Positions 18,679 to 31,549 of a stretch of 64,000 nucleotides of DNA are shown here, one piece after another; position 1 is the first letter of the stretch; the number at the start of each line of letters is the position of its first letter. A model generated the notes under the pieces. The model saw only the letters and a program-made list of their open reading frames with translations. It was not told where the DNA came from and did not search any database. The translations under genes were made by a program, and so were the position numbers. The DNA comes from a virus: IMG/VR virus record IMGVR_UViG_3300003583_000001, positions 1 to 64,000 of that record; one strand, 5' to 3'.

Positions 18679-18754
18679 TGGTGCTGCCACGAGGATTCGA
18701 ACCCCGGACCTGAGGTTTACAAAACCCCTGCTCTACCGACTGAGCTATAGCAGC
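18679..18754 (-). tRNA. tRNA-Thr(UGU)
   Basis: GCTGCTATAGCTCAGTCGGTAGAGCAGGGGTTTTGTAAACCTCAGGTCCGGGGTTCGAATCCTCGTGGCAGCACCA; full cloverleaf with encoded CCA. Confidence 0.96.
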
Positions 18755-19914
18755 TTAATATTCATATGTGTTAGCATATCGTTTGCTAGGTCACGAAACC
18801 AAACGCTATCGTGACCTCGTGTAGTCTCAGCGGCTGTCCCAATACGAATACCACTTGTTTCTACAAAAGAGCGTGGATCGTTAGGCACACCATTCTTATT
18901 CACTGTGATGCCCTTTGCTTCAAGCATATCTGCTGCATCTCGACCAGAACGATTCGTCCCACTGAGATTTAGCAAAACGATATGAGAGTCTGTACCACCA
19001 GTCTGTACGTTCATACCTCTGTTAGTGAATACATTACACATCACTCTAGCGTTATGAATAACCTGCTGGCTGTATAGTTTAAAGTCATCAGTGTTAGCCT
19101 CAATGAACGCTTGTGCTTTTGCAGCAATCATATTCATCAGAGGTCCGCCCTGTGTGCCAGGAAATATAGCGCTATTTATTTGCTTCGTATAAGATGGGCG
19201 GTTCCATAGAATGATGCCGCCTCTGGGACCACGAAGCGTCTTATGAGTTGTGCTTGATACTACGTCAGCAAAATCACATGGGTTTTCATAGGCACCACCT
19301 GCAATCAAGCCAGAGTAGTGAGCCATATCTACGAATAGATAAGCGCCAACACTGTCTGCAATCATCCGCATTGCTTCCCAGTCGATTTGTCGAGGATAAG
19401 CACTCGCACCAGCAACAATCATCTTTGGCCTGAACTGACCAGCCTTATCAGATACCTCTTGGTAATCGATGAAGCCATTCTCGTCCACACCATATGAATG
19501 TGCTTTGTATATTTTTCCTGAAGCAGTCATTGGCGCACCATGAGTTAGATGTCCGCCAGAAGCAAGGTCCATACCGAGGATCGTATCACCCGGTTTTAGG
19601 AATGCTTGATATACAGCCATGTTAGCATTAGCGCCAGAGTGCGGCTGTACGTTAGCATACTCACACCCATAGAGTTCTTTCAGTTGGTCAATCGCCAACT
19701 GCTCAATCGAATCCATATGCTCACAGCCGTTGTAATAACGCTTGCCTGGATAACCTTCCGCATACTTGTTTGTAAAGACGCTACCACAGAGTTGCATAAC
19801 AGCATCACTAGCAAAGTTCTCACTAGCAATCAACTCAATCGTATCATTTTGTCTAGTAACCTCACTTGATAAAATTTTATTGACCCTACTGTCAATTCCT
19901 GTACCGTGATACAT
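18745..19914 (-). CDS. glyA: Serine hydroxymethyltransferase
   Basis: IELIASENF, NKYAEGYPGKRYYNGC, VQPHSG and TTHKTLRGPRGG (PLP lysine); start at 19914 after GGAG. Confidence 0.97.
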   Translation of the reverse strand: MYHGTGIDSRVNKILSSEVTRQNDTIELIASENFASDAVMQLCGSVFTNKYAEGYPGKRYYNGCEHMDSIEQLAIDQLKELYGCEYANVQPHSGANANMAVYQAFLKPGDTILGMDLASGGHLTHGAPMTASGKIYKAHSYGVDENGFIDYQEVSDKAGQFRPKMIVAGASAYPRQIDWEAMRMIADSVGAYLFVDMAHYSGLIAGGAYENPCDFADVVSSTTHKTLRGPRGGIILWNRPSYTKQINSAIFPGTQGGPLMNMIAAKAQAFIEANTDDFKLYSQQVIHNARVMCNVFTNRGMNVQTGGTDSHIVLLNLSGTNRSGRDAADMLEAKGITVNKNGVPNDPRSFVETSGIRIGTAAETTRGHDSVWFRDLANDMLTHMNIKLL

Positions 19915-20002
19915 TTCATCTCCATTATCTCTCATAAAGTCCCAATGCGACAATCGTTTTTCGTTCATTTTAATAGCATTCCAATAAACAGTTAGTAGAT
20001 CA

Positions 20003-20188
20003 TTATACTTTATCATTATAACTATTCACAAATTTGTGGGCTAGTGATTCATTGTCATATTTATATTTTACAGCAAATTCTGTGTTGGAATTTTTATGAT
20101 GAATCCAAATTTCATATCCATCATTATCAAGGTCATGAACTCTTGCAAATCCATCACGTTCATTCGAGGGCATTTTTGCAACCAACAT
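20003..20188 (-). CDS. Hypothetical protein
   Basis: GGAG RBS, 61-aa ORF. Confidence 0.55.
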   Translation of the reverse strand: MLVAKMPSNERDGFARVHDLDNDGYEIWIHHKNSNTEFAVKYKYDNESLAHKFVNSYNDKV

Positions 20189-20244: not shown

Positions 20245-20620
20245 TTAGAATTTAACTGAGGTTGTGAACCCCACAAAAGTATCTTGATATGCAGCGTCAC
20301 CATCTGTCGTCATTTTAACATATGGCGTTACACCAACATTAAACAATTCCAAATTGTATCCAGCTTCAAGTTCAACGCCGGTCAATTCAAACTCATCAAC
20401 AAGTACTGTTGGCGTTACACCAACATAAATATTATTCCAATCGACGGTTGCGCTAGGCTCTGCTGTGATTGTGCCTGCATCGATTGCATATGCTACATCA
20501 TTGCTGAGTGTAAGACCGAGACCATATGGCAATAGACCGCCTTCTGGTGCTGCTTCGCCATCTGCTAGTGCAGGCGAAGCAAGAAATGCTGTAACTGCTA
20601 CAGCGGCTAGTAGCTTCTTC
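20245..20620 (-). CDS. Small outer-membrane beta-barrel-like protein
   Basis: Sec signal (MKKLLAAVAVTAFLASPALA), alternating beta strands, C-terminal VGFTTSVKF ending in Phe. Confidence 0.7.
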
Positions 20621-20645
20621 ATTTATTTGACTCCTTTAAAGTTAA

Positions 20646-20905
20646 AAATGACAGGAAGGTCCGAAGACCCCTTCTGTTTCCAAGCGTCCTGTCCCGCTCA
20701 TAAGAATTATGCTGCTAGAGCATATTCCTGAGAAACGAAATTATCGTTTGCATTTAGTTTGTTTTAGTCATATCGTGACCAATCGGTAACTCCAGTCCTC
20801 TATTATCTGCATGTCGAAACCTGTTTCGCCCCCATAAGGTTTATGGTGGAGGCGTCCGGTACTGCCCCGGAGTCCATTACAGTTTTCAATTTCCTTCATC
20901 GTTAC
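20646..20905 (-). ncRNA. ssrA: Circularly permuted (two-piece) tmRNA, tag ANDNFVSQEYALAA; outer ends approximate
   Basis: Acceptor piece ...TCCGG-GGCAGTA-CCGGA-CGCCTCC-ACCA (ends 20844), 10-nt spacer, coding piece GGGGGCG... (starts 20833) with G3-U70 pair, tag ORF 20751-20707, CUUCGG-capped terminal hairpin. Confidence 0.95.
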
Positions 20906-20943
20906 TTCTGTATATATCTAATCCCAAAAGACTAGATATATAA

Positions 20944-26085: not shown

Positions 26086-26162
26086 TGGCGGTCCCTATAG
26101 GATTCGAACCTATGACCCACAGCTTAGAAGGCTGTTGCTCTATCCAACTGAGCTAAGGAACC
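26086..26162 (-). tRNA. tRNA-Arg(UCU)
   Basis: GGTTCCTTAGCTCAGTTGGATAGAGCAACAGCCTTCTAAGCTGTGGGTCATAGGTTCGAATCCTATAGGGACCGCCA. Confidence 0.96.
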
Positions 26163-29375: not shown

Positions 29376-29784
29376 TTTTCATCTCACCATCAAGAACAAC
29401 ATACATATAAACAGGACATCCACTCGATTTAATATAAGCACGACCACCATCAATCATATTGCCGTTCCCAAACATCTTGTAGTCATGTCGATGGGCACTA
29501 TACTGTAGATTACCATCATCATCTTCGACACACCCAACCTCCTGTTTTTCAATCCTATCAGCATTAGTAATCATTAGATTGCCGCTCATTGGATGATAAT
29601 AAATGCCAAAATACTTGTTACCAAAGTCAGGATGTGGCGTATCACGATAGAAGATATCCATCGCTTGTGCTTCGTGTCCTAGTGCAGACGTACACACATA
29701 CTTGACAGGAACTCCATCTTTCTCTGTATAGTGTTTGCAAATCTTATCAGTATCAAATTGTGGTTCGTGTTTAATCATTTTCAA
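29359..29784 (-). CDS. Hypothetical protein
   Basis: YSAHRHDY...MIDGGRAY. Confidence 0.7.
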   Translation of the reverse strand: MKMIKHEPQFDTDKICKHYTEKDGVPVKYVCTSALGHEAQAMDIFYRDTPHPDFGNKYFGIYYHPMSGNLMITNADRIEKQEVGCVEDDDGNLQYSAHRHDYKMFGNGNMIDGGRAYIKSSGCPVYMYVVLDGEMKNESVD

Positions 29785-30098
29785 TCACTCGTTTTGGCTA
29801 GAGCCTTGCGAATCCATTTGACCTTGTAATCCTTACTCCATTCTCTAAGATAATCATTGTCTTTATCGAACAGTTCCAGCATTTCATCTTCGTTCATGGT
29901 AGTAGTGTCTGTAATGTATTCTCCCATATGTTTTTGAGAGAACTCTTCACAGTTGTCCTGCGTTACAGTGTCTTCAGCCCATTCAATTGCAGTGCCGTGC
30001 AGCTTAGGCAAATCATCCTTATGCATTACATAACGCATACGATACGATGAAATACAAGTTACAACAACATAATCTTTTTCTTCTACATTATCAGTCAT
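29781..30098 (-). CDS. Hypothetical protein
   Basis: ORF in operon. Confidence 0.65.
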   Translation of the reverse strand: MTDNVEEKDYVVVTCISSYRMRYVMHKDDLPKLHGTAIEWAEDTVTQDNCEEFSQKHMGEYITDTTTMNEDEMLELFDKDNDYLREWSKDYKVKWIRKALAKTSD

Positions 30099-30100
30099 TA

Positions 30101-30466
30101 TTATCTCCTCATCTTTGCTAGTGCTTCAGCATCTTCAGTAGAAAACACTGGAACCATATTACTCTTGTGCATCGTTGCAATACCAAGTAGCTTACGCTTA
30201 CCACTATATTGCATAGGTTCTTTTTTCGGTGCCACACCAGTTGGAATTTGATTAGAAAGCGTGGTGGGCCCGGCAGGATTCGAACCTGCGACAACGCCGT
30301 TATGAGCGGCGGGTTCTGACCGCTGAACTACAGGCCCGTTATATCCCATCTTCTTGAGAAACTTTGCATGAGCAGCATCTGTTTGTTGCTGCTTCTTTGA
30401 CTTCTTCTGTTTTCGCTTCTTCGTACTCGTTGTACTGAAGTAAGCTGGAAGCATATGCATCGACAT
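30101..30466 (-). CDS. Basic phage protein containing an in-frame nested tRNA gene
   Basis: GAGGAG RBS and own promoter; C-terminal GIATMHKSNMVPVFS...MRR motif recalled from T4-like hypothetical proteins; abuts the next ORF. Confidence 0.75.
   Translation of the reverse strand: MSMHMLPAYFSTTSTKKRKQKKSKKQQQTDAAHAKFLKKMGYNGPVVQRSEPAAHNGVVAGSNPAGPTTLSNQIPTGVAPKKEPMQYSGKRKLLGIATMHKSNMVPVFSTEDAEALAKMRR
30262..30337 (-). tRNA. tRNA with CAU anticodon, most likely tRNA-Ile2 (lysidine)
   Basis: GGGCCTGTAGTTCAGCGGTCAGAACCCGCCGCTCATAACGGCGTTGTCGCAGGTTCGAATCCTGCCGGGCCCACCA; G1-C72 paired (not initiator); C4-G69 and C5-G68 TilS determinants. Confidence 0.93.
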
Positions 30467-30494
30467 CTCTGTTTCTCCTCATTAGTATTATTAT

Positions 30495-30523
30495 ATACTA
30501 TACGAGAAGGGATATAAAGTCAA
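30495..30523 (-). promoter_or_regulatory. sigma70 promoter for the tRNA-containing gene
   Basis: TTGACT-N17-TAGTAT. Confidence 0.7.
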
Positions 30524-30528
30524 CCTTT

Positions 30529-30882
30529 TTATGAGGGAATTTTTGGACCTTTATCTGCTGGTTCCGGGAGATTCTTTTTCATATCAAACTCCCACTCTAG
30601 TGCTTCATTAATTTCAACAATGAAGCAAGCATATCCTTCAGGGTCAACACCAAGAACGACCAAATCTTCCTTATGAGAGTATACACCTACGAATATATCA
30701 CCCTTAGCGGTTTTCGTTAACCCACTTGCAACCAAGACATAACCTTCGTCATCAATATACTGTTTAATATCTTTTGTATCGTCACACACCAGATTAACTG
30801 GCATGGTAAATATAGCCGATTTTGCGGGGGTTGAAATCATAATAACAGCAGCGATAGTAATTGCAGATAGTAATTTAAACAT
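30529..30882 (-). CDS. Secreted hypothetical protein
   Basis: Signal peptide MFKLLSAITIAAVIMISTPAKSA; AAGGAG RBS. Confidence 0.65.
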   Translation of the reverse strand: MFKLLSAITIAAVIMISTPAKSAIFTMPVNLVCDDTKDIKQYIDDEGYVLVASGLTKTAKGDIFVGVYSHKEDLVVLGVDPEGYACFIVEINEALEWEFDMKKNLPEPADKGPKIPS

Positions 30883-31549
30883 TATACTTCTCCTTGTATG
30901 AAACTCTGGCATCCACAAACCCTTCAATGAAGTTGTCTCTATTTTCAACAAACACTTGTGGTTCAGAGCCATCGACCGCAATAATCACTACGGTGCGACT
31001 GACTGGGATTTCAGTTCGTTCCTCATACATCACAGCATAGCAGGACGCTTGCATAAAGTAGTTAGAAATCCATTCTTTCTTTTTGGGTTTACGAGATGTT
31101 TTGAAATCAATAATGGAGAGTTTCCCGTCGAACTCTGCGATACAATCTACCCTACCTGCTGTTTTCAGAAAGTCAGAATACAGCGGTGCTTCTAGATATT
31201 GAATGTTATCAATATATGTGTCTAGGATAGGTTGGATTTGTTTGAACGTAAAGACGTTCGCTGGCATCTGACCATCAAGATAGTCAGGCTTATTGTTGAG
31301 GTAGTCTTCACAGATTTGGTGAACCTTCGTACCTCTAGAACCAGCTTGTGTAGAAATGCGATTAGCTTCTTCTGCGCCAACACGTTTTCTCCAAGCAGCA
31401 ATGCCTGCTTTGCTTAGTTCTGATAGTATAGTCGTAACTGACGGGTAGCGATTTCCGTCAGGCGTGTTGTACACCCTACCGCTACCCGTCGTTTCAGCAA
31501 TTAGCTCCGTTAGAGTTGGAGCATTCACATGATTAAAGTGTTTCATCAA
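30875..31549 (-). CDS. PD-(D/E)XK exonuclease (Cas4-like phage exonuclease)
   Basis: YPSVTTIL, RGTKVH, AGRVDCIA, IIDFKTS and YFMQASCY. Confidence 0.9.
   Translation of the reverse strand: MMKHFNHVNAPTLTELIAETTGSGRVYNTPDGNRYPSVTTILSELSKAGIAAWRKRVGAEEANRISTQAGSRGTKVHQICEDYLNNKPDYLDGQMPANVFTFKQIQPILDTYIDNIQYLEAPLYSDFLKTAGRVDCIAEFDGKLSIIDFKTSRKPKKKEWISNYFMQASCYAVMYEERTEIPVSRTVVIIAVDGSEPQVFVENRDNFIEGFVDARVSYKEKYNV

What the first reader, a model, noticed from the sequence alone, without database searches (positions are those of the whole stretch)
30101..30466. Intact tRNA-Ile2(CAU) nested in frame, on the same strand, inside a protein-coding gene
Seen: a perfect 76-nt cloverleaf with CCA (30337-30262) starts exactly at codon 44 of a 121-aa ORF. 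It is read as GPVVQRSEPAAHNGVVAGSNPAGPT with no stop. The ORF has a GAGGAG RBS and a sigma70 promoter, and it ends flush with the next gene. Recalled, not searched: the flanks (MHMLPAYFSTT..KKRK and GIATMHKSNMVPVFS...MRR) match a T4-like hypothetical family, so the tRNA seems to occupy a variable linker of a real gene. Inference: each transcript yields either protein or tRNA, because RNase P and 3' processing destroy the mRNA. That would make it a processing-versus-translation switch or dual-coding DNA.
Basis: partly seen in the sequence, partly recalled or inferred. Interest (0 to 1): 0.9.

Follow-up and report, generated by a model that had tools for sequence, protein, structure and literature searches.

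The report
tRNA gene nested inside phage gene
A complete, working-looking isoleucine-type tRNA gene lies in frame inside the floppy middle of a small conserved marine-phage protein gene. In 71 of 72 related phage sequences that carry one or two tRNAs at this spot the reading frame stays open, so the same DNA appears to be kept both as tRNA and as protein code.

Summary
ARAGORN and Rfam (67 bits) call a 76-nt tRNA(CAU) with CCA at 30262-30337 (-). It starts at codon 44 of the 121-aa ORF 30101-30466 (-) and is read through without a stop.

- **The ORF is a real gene.** It matches phrog_27048 over its full length. tRNA-free homologues occur in Delftia phage PhiW-14, Acidovorax phage ACP17 and a Synechococcus phage, and there are more than 700 metagenomic relatives.
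- **The frame is kept.** I anchored separate searches on the N- and C-terminal domains. Of 159 unique relatives, 72 carry one or two tRNAs (Ile2-type CAU, Pro, Arg, Ala, Trp, Thr, Ile-UAU) in the same linker. In 71 of 72 a single ORF runs through them; chance gives about 0.11 for one tRNA.
- **Both products are under selection.** Flanks have dN/dS 0.05-0.45. Nested tRNAs keep their stems through compensatory changes.
- **The slot is modular.** The tRNA-coded residues fall in a predicted disordered linker, and cassettes are swapped by recombination at the tRNA borders.
- **Identity.** G3-C70, C4-G69 and C5-G68 support tRNA-Ile2 rather than tRNA-Met.

The "protein or tRNA" switch is plausible but untested. 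The only published precedent found is selC nested in selB (Mukai 2021). This scan has already reported the same phage family on other DNA.

The parts
30490..30523 (-). Two overlapping sigma-70-like promoter matches upstream of the gene (TTGACT-17-TAGTAT and TTTATA-17-TATAAT)
   Evidence: consensus match only. About half of the relatives, with or without tRNA, have a match of at least 10 of 12 positions within 120 nt upstream. The mean best score is 9.0-9.2, against 7.8 in shuffled sequence.
30475..30480 (-). GAGGAG Shine-Dalgarno, 8 nt before the ATG at 30466
   Evidence: Sequence read.
30101..30466 (-). 121-aa ORF, a member of phrog_27048 (function unknown), which contains the tRNA
   Evidence: (E 1.1e-14, profile positions 1-127 of 127).
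30338..30466 (-). Codons 1-43: conserved basic N-terminal domain (MxMHLLPxY.TTT..KKRK...HAKFLKKMG). A helix is predicted at residues 24-39.
   Evidence: HMM hit. AlphaFold2 pLDDT about 92 over the helix.
30262..30337 (-). 76-nt tRNA(CAU) with encoded CCA, most likely tRNA-Ile2 (lysidine type). It is read in frame as codons 44-68 plus the first base of codon 69.
   Evidence: The cloverleaf is the minimum-energy fold within the mRNA context. G3-C70, C4-G69 and C5-G68 match Silva 2006.
30224..30261 (-). Linker after the tRNA (rest of codon 69 to codon 81, TLSNQIPTGVAPK). In relative L118 the homologous stretch follows a tRNA-Pro instead.
   Evidence: local alignment of L118 against the window, 0 of 1000 shuffles as good. 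Low pLDDT.
30104..30223 (-). Codons 82-121: conserved C-terminal domain (Y.G.RKLLGIATMHKSNMVPVF...AKMRR). A beta-hairpin and a helix are predicted.
   Evidence: HMM hit, invariant columns and the model.
30105..30110 (-). GAGGAG formed within the last three sense codons (Met-Arg-Arg), 6 nt before the ATG of the next gene; a likely Shine-Dalgarno for translational coupling
   Evidence: Sequence read; the coupling is an inference.
29781..30098 (-). Downstream 105-aa ORF, which starts 2 nt after the stop of the nested-tRNA gene
   Evidence: No PHROG match.

Best explanation
A functional tRNA gene, most likely tRNA-Ile2(CAU) for AUA codons, is written into the codons of the disordered linker of a small, conserved, probably early phage protein (phrog_27048, function unknown).

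Ribosomes read straight through the 76 nt as 25 linker residues, so the full-length protein is still made. The same transcript can also fold the cloverleaf and be cut out as a tRNA.

Selection keeps both products: the ORF stays open and the flanks evolve under purifying selection, while the tRNA stems are kept by compensatory changes.

The linker acts as a slot. Different tRNAs, one or two at a time, replace each other there by recombination, with breakpoints at the tRNA borders and in the conserved coding flanks.

Shown: the anatomy, the conservation of frame and stems, and the mosaicism. Inferred: that the tRNA is matured and charged, that the protein is made, and that processing and translation of one transcript compete. 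I give the core claim (dual use under selection) about 0.8. I give about 0.3 to the idea that the competition is itself an adaptive switch.
For: **Anatomy**
- tRNA and ORF as described.

**A real gene**
- Full-length match to phrog_27048.
- tRNA-free homologues in PhiW-14, ACP17 and BUCT-ZZ01.
- 714 relatives in the protein search.

**Frame kept**
- Loci anchored on the C-domain: 20 of 20 tRNA-bearing genes have one ORF, and none has the two domains in different frames.
- Union with loci anchored on the N-domain: 72 of 159 unique ORFs carry tRNAs in 12 arrangements, and 71 of 72 are a single ORF ending in a recognised C-domain.
- Null expectation: only 33% of the frames of 86 free-standing tRNAs are open. 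Every nested tRNA sits in an open phase, usually its only one.

**Selection on the flanks**
- dN/dS is 0.05-0.45 among tRNA-bearing genes.

**Selection on the tRNAs**
- Nested Pro tRNAs: 13 of 23 stem pairs show compensatory double changes.
- Nested CAU tRNAs: 8 of 21 pairs do, and no pair is broken in 7 unique sequences.

**Linker**
- Residues 40-94 have pLDDT about 54-79 and lie between two confident elements.
- The cloverleaf is the minimum-energy fold in context.

**Cassette exchange**
- Window against L090: N-part 55% identical, N-end plus tRNA 108 of 109, C-part 94%.
- L090 and L033 share the Pro cassette (113 of 116) but hold Met-type and Arg respectively in the first slot.
- L082 keeps an in-frame 26-nt 3' remnant of tRNA-Pro.

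**Ile2 and codon need**
- The acceptor-stem discriminators are present.
- The contig's other tRNAs read ACA and AGA. AUA makes up 12.9 per 1000 codons.

**RNA libraries**
- Contigs from two studies bridge the tRNA on both sides: X2 record 10 (30007-30564) and X1 record 4 (30169-30385).
Against: - No direct evidence exists for a mature tRNA, for aminoacylation or for the protein.
- The RNA-library data are assembled contigs. They cannot show ends, strand or level, and they may include DNA.
- The protein's function is unknown: no Pfam, PDB-fold or Atlas lead. A functional link between protein and tRNA therefore cannot be argued.
- One relative (L304) has the gene interrupted after the tRNA by about 0.6 kb, so the gene is not indispensable in every lineage.
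- Sampling returns the best 80 loci per scan, so it is not a full census.
- Relatives are related to each other, so 71 of 72 is not 72 independent trials. There are 12 arrangements.
Confidence: 0.8

Rival explanations
1. Adaptive switch or timer. RNase P and 3' processing of the nested tRNA destroy the mRNA, so each transcript gives either protein or tRNA. The phage uses this competition to limit or time the protein. The stop-less 5' fragment might be handled by the phage's own tmRNA.
For: - The cloverleaf folds in context.
- A strong promoter-like site and a Shine-Dalgarno lie upstream.
- A tmRNA gene lies on the same contig.
- Mukai proposed the same logic for selC in selB.
- It is established knowledge that RNase P cuts tRNAs out of mixed tRNA-mRNA transcripts.
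Against: - More than half of the sampled family members (87 of 159) have no tRNA and keep the same gene, so the protein does not need such control.
- The tRNA identity is interchangeable across 12 arrangements. That fits a permissive slot better than a tuned regulator.
- No processing data exist.
- The tmRNA link rests only on its being 9 kb away.
Confidence: 0.3
2. The tRNA is a dead relic. It no longer works as a tRNA, and its sequence survives only as linker codons.
For: Some relatives do carry remnants or apparently truncated copies. L082 has a 3' piece of tRNA-Pro. P0041 lacks the residues of the 3' acceptor strand (protein level only).
Against: - The window's copy has a perfect cloverleaf with CCA and scores 67 bits.
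- Nested CAU and Pro tRNAs change by compensatory pairs with almost no broken pairs. Selection on linker codons would not produce that pattern.
Confidence: 0.06
3. The ORF is not translated as one protein. The tRNA insertion killed the gene and the open frame is an accident or a gene-caller artefact.
For: For one locus alone, an in-frame and stop-free insertion has a chance of roughly 0.1.
Against: - 71 of 72 tRNA-bearing relatives keep the frame.
- dN/dS of both flanks is far below 1 among them.
- The RBS and start are conserved.
Confidence: 0.03
4. Splicing-like removal. The tRNA is cut out and the two mRNA halves are re-joined, or the C-terminal half is translated on its own.
For: None was found.
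Against: - Nested tRNAs are 74, 76, 77 or 78 nt long, and most of these lengths are not multiples of 3. The frame is kept only when the tRNA is counted in.
- The only ATG after the tRNA (codon 85) has no Shine-Dalgarno, and that position is not conserved.
Confidence: 0.01

Closest known systems
selC (tRNA-Sec) nested inside the selB ORF of Alphaproteobacteria (Mukai 2021, Int J Mol Sci 22:4605, PMC8124441)
   Same: - A whole tRNA gene lies on the same strand inside a protein ORF and is read through in frame.
- A remnant tRNA occurs in some relatives.
- The author proposes that folding and processing of the tRNA lower the yield of full-length protein.
- The evidence is bioinformatic only.
   Different: - In selB the tRNA lies in a C-terminal extension; here it lies between two conserved domains.
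- In selB one fixed tRNA is functionally tied to the protein (SelB carries Sec-tRNA). Here at least seven kinds of tRNA, one or two at a time, are interchangeable, and the protein's function is unknown.
- That case is bacterial; this one is phage.
- Here there are selection statistics: 71 of 72 frames open, dN/dS and covariation.
Mixed tRNA-mRNA transcription units, such as the E. coli thrU-tyrU-glyT-thrT-tufB operon and the phage T4 tRNA cluster (own knowledge, not searched here)
   Same: tRNAs and coding sequence share one transcript, and RNase P and RNase E release the tRNAs from it.
   Different: In those units the tRNAs lie between ORFs, so processing separates the products without destroying a coding sequence. 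Here the tRNA is itself coding sequence.
Dual-function RNAs, such as tmRNA, SgrS/SgrT and RNAIII/hld (own knowledge)
   Same: One RNA carries both a structured non-coding function and a translated reading frame.
   Different: In those RNAs the coding and structured parts are mostly side by side. The peptide is small, and the RNA is not a canonical tRNA embedded in a conserved two-domain protein.
Earlier reports of this scan on other DNA (e1-5379051, e1-5379063, e1-5876011, e1-5834560)
   Same: They describe the same small marine-phage gene family with Trp, Pro, Arg, Ala, Met or Thr tRNAs in the same linker and the frame kept.
   Different: - This window carries the Ile2-type CAU tRNA alone.
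- New here: the Ile2 signature test, N- and C-anchored sampling with one exception found, a second C-terminal domain type, quantified mosaic breakpoints, and RNA-library contigs that bridge the tRNA.

Membership tests
tRNA (Rfam RF00005) | Cloverleaf with four stems, a 7-nt anticodon loop with U33 and a purine at 37, and a T-loop GTTCGAATC | tested here: met
   ARAGORN. Rfam 67.3 bits against a gathering score of 29, model positions 1-71. The anticodon loop reads CTCATAA. The cloverleaf is the minimum-energy fold with 40-nt flanks.
tRNA (Rfam RF00005) | Maturation to a stable, aminoacylated RNA | not testable with these tools
   The only RNA data are contigs, which cannot show ends.
tRNA-Ile2 (CAU, lysidine type) | Purine at position 3 paired with C or T at position 70 (tRNA-Met and tRNA-fMet usually have C3-G70), together with C4-G69 and C5-G68 (Silva et al. 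2006, PMC1635315) | tested here: met
   The window tRNA has G3-C70, C4-G69 and C5-G68. All 7 unique nested CAU tRNAs have G-C or A-U at 3-70, with 4-69 and 5-68 invariant.
tRNA-Ile2 (CAU, lysidine type) | Not an initiator: the 1-72 pair is formed, there is no A11-U24, and the anticodon stem lacks GGG/CCC | tested here: met
   G1-C72 is paired, 11-24 is U-A, and the anticodon stem is CGCCG/CGGCG.
tRNA-Ile2 (CAU, lysidine type) | C34 converted to lysidine by TilS and the tRNA charged with Ile | not testable with these tools
   The 73.9-kb contig, about 43% complete, has no TilS-family gene. A host enzyme would be needed.
phrog_27048 (phage protein of unknown function) | Full-length match to the family profile, with both the N- and C-terminal conserved blocks | tested here: met
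   E 1.1e-14, residues 1-121 on profile positions 1-127 of 127. Invariant Y87, G89, G95, A97, H100, K101, S102, P106, M119, R120 and R121.
Nested tRNA-in-ORF arrangement (selC-in-selB type, Mukai 2021) | An entire tRNA on the same strand, inside the ORF and read in frame | tested here: met
Nested tRNA-in-ORF arrangement (selC-in-selB type, Mukai 2021) | The tRNA is the specific ligand of the protein that contains it, and it lies in a C-terminal extension | tested here: not met
   The tRNA lies between two conserved domains, and its identity varies among relatives in 12 arrangements. The protein's function is unknown. The locus resembles that system but is not a member of it.

The most novel reading that the evidence does not exclude
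The gene is a dedicated landing pad for tRNAs. Its conserved coding flanks would serve as homology arms through which co-infecting phages exchange tRNA cassettes. RNase P cleavage of the nested tRNA would make the early protein self-limiting, leaving a stop-less 5' fragment for tmRNA. One transcript would then deliver a burst of protein first and a stable tRNA afterwards.
Probability: 0.2. Interest if true: 0.9.

Novelty: new variant of a known kind. Interest (0 to 1): 0.8.

Why it matters
A canonical tRNA gene and a protein-coding sequence are normally treated as mutually exclusive annotations, and gene callers mask one with the other.

Here selection demonstrably maintains both readings of the same 76 bases across dozens of divergent phages. 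This shows that a tRNA sequence can serve as linker codons.

- **A tractable natural system.** It allows a direct test of how translation and RNase P processing compete on one RNA.
- **A visible mechanism of tRNA exchange.** A recombination slot with coding homology arms shows how phages may reshuffle their tRNA sets.
- **A warning for annotation.** Pipelines that discard ORFs overlapping tRNAs will lose real genes.

The only published precedent found, selC in selB, is a single bioinformatic report. The phage case is more frequent, more varied and easier to test.

Tried and rejected
- **Megablast against cultured phages:** no match. Distant blastn found only the tRNA itself, for example the phiKZ tRNA annotated Met or Ile in different records.
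- **Protein function:** Pfam gave no family for the protein or its three cultured-phage homologues. Foldseek against the PDB found nothing. The ESM Atlas returned only unnamed viral clusters below 0.8.
I could therefore not fetch DNA for the three-tRNA form (P0087) or for the apparently decayed forms (P0020, P0041). Those remain hints at protein level only.
- **Cryptic tRNAs in long linkers:** relatives with linkers of 140-246 nt and no called tRNA yielded none, even at a relaxed ARAGORN threshold. These hold a real conserved middle peptide.
- **Excision and re-ligation, and separate translation of the C-half:** both rejected; see the rival explanations.
- **Suspected tRNA-Pro remnant in L011:** not significant (179 of 1000 shuffles as good). 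The same test on the window's post-tRNA linker was also negative.
- **Read laying:** all runs are contigs. Gaps in cover mean nothing, and the depth peak over 30238-30304 sums contigs of unrelated tRNAs. I drew no conclusion about ends, strand or level.
- **Contigs that stop matching exactly at 30262:** these fit relatives with another cassette after the tRNA. They are not RNA 3' ends.
- **TilS family on the own contig:** none, but the contig is a fragment.
- **Literature:** four searches for a phage precedent found none. The library lacks most subscription journals.

Full report
**What is there**

On the minus strand, ORF 30101-30466 encodes 121 aa. ARAGORN places a 76-nt tRNA with anticodon CAT and an encoded CCA at 30262-30337 on the same strand. 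The Rfam tRNA model scores it at 67.3 bits against a gathering score of 29.

The first tRNA base is the first base of codon 44. In that frame the tRNA reads GPVVQRSEPAAHNGVVAGSNPAGPT without a stop, and its other two frames are closed. A GAGGAG lies 8 nt before the ATG, and the next gene's ATG is 2 nt after the stop. Two overlapping sigma-70-like matches lie 25-55 nt upstream.

**The ORF is a real gene**

The ORF matches phrog_27048 from end to end (E 1.1e-14). tblastn finds the C-terminal half in Delftia phage PhiW-14 gp114, in Acidovorax phage ACP17, and in an unannotated ORF of Synechococcus phage BUCT-ZZ01. None of these has a tRNA inside the gene.

The large protein collection holds 714 relatives, mostly from marine and other aquatic metagenomes. 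The alignment shows three parts:
- a conserved basic N-terminal block,
- a conserved C-terminal block (Y.G.RKLLGIATMHKSNMVPVF...KMRR),
- a variable middle.

AlphaFold2 with a 50-sequence alignment gives a confident helix (residues 24-39) and a beta-hairpin plus helix (95-120). Residues 40-94 between them have low confidence, and these include the tRNA-coded stretch.

The window's phage has T4-type baseplate wedge and hub genes, ribonucleotide reductase and primase. The contig is 73.9 kb, 39.6% G+C and about 43% complete.

**Is the open frame selected?**

I collected loci anchored on the C-domain alone, so that the state of the N-half could not bias the sample. I then collected loci anchored on the N-domain alone. 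For each locus I located both domains in any frame with HMMs and called tRNAs with ARAGORN.

- **C-anchored set.** 20 de-duplicated genes carry tRNAs between the domains, and all 20 are one ORF. No locus has the two domains in different frames.
- **N-anchored set.** Fourteen loci seemed to lack the C-domain. On inspection, most of them (including all ten that carry tRNAs) end in a second, divergent C-terminal type (...AYNKG...GKRR or ...DIGR), and every one is an open ORF.
- **Union.** 159 unique ORFs; 72 carry one or two tRNAs; 71 of 72 are a single ORF ending in a recognised C-domain.
- **The exception.** In L304 about 0.6 kb is inserted after the linker.
- **Arrangements.** Twelve were seen: Arg, Pro, Arg+Pro, Trp, CAU, Ala+Pro, CAU+Pro, Ala, Arg+CAU, Thr, and a long-armed Ile(UAU) alone or after Trp.
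- **Null expectation.** In 86 unique free-standing tRNAs from the same contigs only 33% of frames are open, and 24 have none. A random in-frame, stop-free placement of one tRNA therefore has a chance of about 0.11.
- **Phase.** Every nested tRNA sits in an open phase, usually its only one.

**Both products are under selection**

Among tRNA-bearing genes the N- and C-domains give dN/dS of 0.05-0.45. For example, the window against L084 has 5 synonymous and 1 non-synonymous difference, and L011 against L082 has 28 and 10.

The nested tRNAs evolve as tRNAs:
- Seven nested Pro tRNAs have compensatory double changes in 13 of 23 stem pairs.
- Seven unique nested CAU tRNAs have them in 8 of 21 pairs, with no broken pair.

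The cloverleaf remains the minimum-energy fold when 40-nt mRNA flanks are included.

Precise excision of the tRNA followed by re-joining cannot explain the frame. The tRNAs are 74-78 nt long, and most of these lengths are not multiples of 3.

**tRNA identity**

ARAGORN says Met. Silva et al. 2006 (PMC1635315) report that G3 or A3 with C70 or T70 marks tRNA-Ile(CAT). [quoted passage not shown]

The window tRNA has G3-C70, C4-G69, C5-G68, a paired 1-72 and U11-A24. All seven nested CAU tRNAs keep these features.

The contig's other tRNAs (Thr-UGU, Arg-UCU, Asn-GUU) fit a phage that supplies A-ending codons, and AUA is 12.9 per 1000 codons. Ile2 is therefore the better call. Lysidine formation would need TilS, which the contig fragment does not encode.

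**How the slot changes**

DNA alignment shows mosaics with breakpoints at the cassette borders.

| Comparison | N-part | N-end plus first slot | Second slot (Pro cassette) | C-part |
|---|---|---|---|---|
| Window vs L090 | 55% | 108 of 109 identical (both Met-type) | present only in L090 | 94% |
| L090 vs L033 | 90% | Met-type vs Arg | 113 of 116 identical | 61% |

- L118 joins a Pro tRNA to the same downstream linker that follows the CAU tRNA in the window.
- L082 keeps an in-frame 26-nt 3' remnant of tRNA-Pro behind a tRNA-Ala.

The conserved coding flanks thus look like homology arms for cassette exchange. This is an inference.

**Expression**

Marine metatranscriptome runs from several studies hold parts of the stretch. 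When laid on the window, a 558-nt contig (X2, 30007-30564) covers the promoter region, the whole ORF with the tRNA, and the start of the next gene. A 217-nt contig from another study (X1, 30169-30385, no differences) bridges both tRNA borders.

This fits an unprocessed transcript. However, contigs cannot show ends or strand, and DNA carry-over is not excluded.

**Interpretation**

The core reading is a tRNA gene and protein code sharing the same bases, both kept by selection, in a permissive disordered linker that serves as an exchangeable tRNA slot. I hold this at about 0.8.

Processing and translation of a single transcript must compete, because RNase P cleavage at 30337/30338 would sever the mRNA. 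Whether that competition is used as a switch is untested. It is made less necessary by the many tRNA-free members of the family (87 of 159). I give the switch about 0.3.

**Known relatives and novelty**

The only published nested tRNA-in-ORF I could find is selC inside selB (Mukai 2021, PMC8124441). It is bioinformatic and describes itself as the first such report in bacteria. Searches for a phage precedent found none.

This scan has already reported the same phage family on other DNA. I re-derived the result independently and added:
- the Ile2 test,
- two-sided sampling with its single exception,
- the second C-terminal type,
- the breakpoint measurements,
- the RNA-library contigs.

Noticed in passing
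window 20616-20938 (-): The phage contig encodes a permuted (two-piece type) tmRNA with tag peptide ANDNFVSQEYALAA. It scores 106 bits on Rfam tmRNA_permuted and 91.5 bits on alpha_tmRNA, which hints at an alphaproteobacterial host.
   Followed up: partly
window 18679-18754 (-) and ORF 18745-20016 (-): tRNA-Thr(UGU) overlaps the last 10 nt of a 423-aa ORF (phrog_9968, labelled methyltransferase), including its stop codon. RNase P cleavage at the tRNA 5' end would therefore remove that gene's stop.
   Followed up: partly
L027:3152-3247 and L097:283-374: Nested in the same slot is a tRNA with anticodon UAU (Ile, reads AUA) that carries a 23-nt insertion or long arm in the variable region. Rfam tRNA scores the L027 copy at 59.4 bits. 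Its acceptor stem resembles that of the CAU tRNA. It may be a TilS-independent way to read AUA.
   Followed up: partly
L082, about 7-33 nt after its nested tRNA-Ala (gene coordinates 204-236): An in-frame 26-nt remnant of the 3' end of tRNA-Pro (21 of 26 identical to the intact L033 copy; 0 of 1000 shuffles as good). One cassette partly overwrote another.
   Followed up: yes
L304:1498-2356: The only broken member found. The N-domain, tRNA-Arg and linker run into an unrelated tail. The C-domain lies about 0.6 kb downstream in another frame, which suggests that an extra gene was inserted.
   Followed up: partly
L255, L256, L263, L268, L272, L284, L291, L299, L301, L318-L320, L322 (L314 is similar): A second C-terminal domain type (...IGQAYNKGGLVVL...GKRR or ...APAYNKGPYQVI...DIGR) replaces the MHKSN type behind the same N-domain and tRNA slot.
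   Followed up: partly
window 30104-30112 (-): The invariant C-terminal Met-Arg-Arg codons (ATGAGGAGA) contain a GAGGAG that sits 6 nt before the next gene's ATG. Part of their conservation may serve translational coupling.
   Followed up: no
L050, L096, L115, L116, L160 and other long-linker relatives: A subfamily without tRNAs has a conserved extra middle peptide (..M.FDEY..YV.G.YK.PK..) where the short-linker members hold tRNAs.
   Followed up: partly
window 26086-26162 (-) compared with the nested Arg tRNAs in L011, L030 and L033: The two free-standing tRNA-Arg(UCU) sampled (the window's copy and one in a related locus) have no open frame. The three unique nested Arg(UCU) tRNAs carry one extra D-loop base (78 nt against 77 for the window's copy) and are open in the frame used. 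This could be adaptation to being read, but the numbers are small.
   Followed up: partly
window 30529-30981 (-) and 30875-31549 (-): The listed 150-aa ORF upstream overlaps the 3' end of a PD-(D/E)XK-type exonuclease gene (phrog_298) by about 100 nt. Its true start is probably an internal codon.
   Followed up: no
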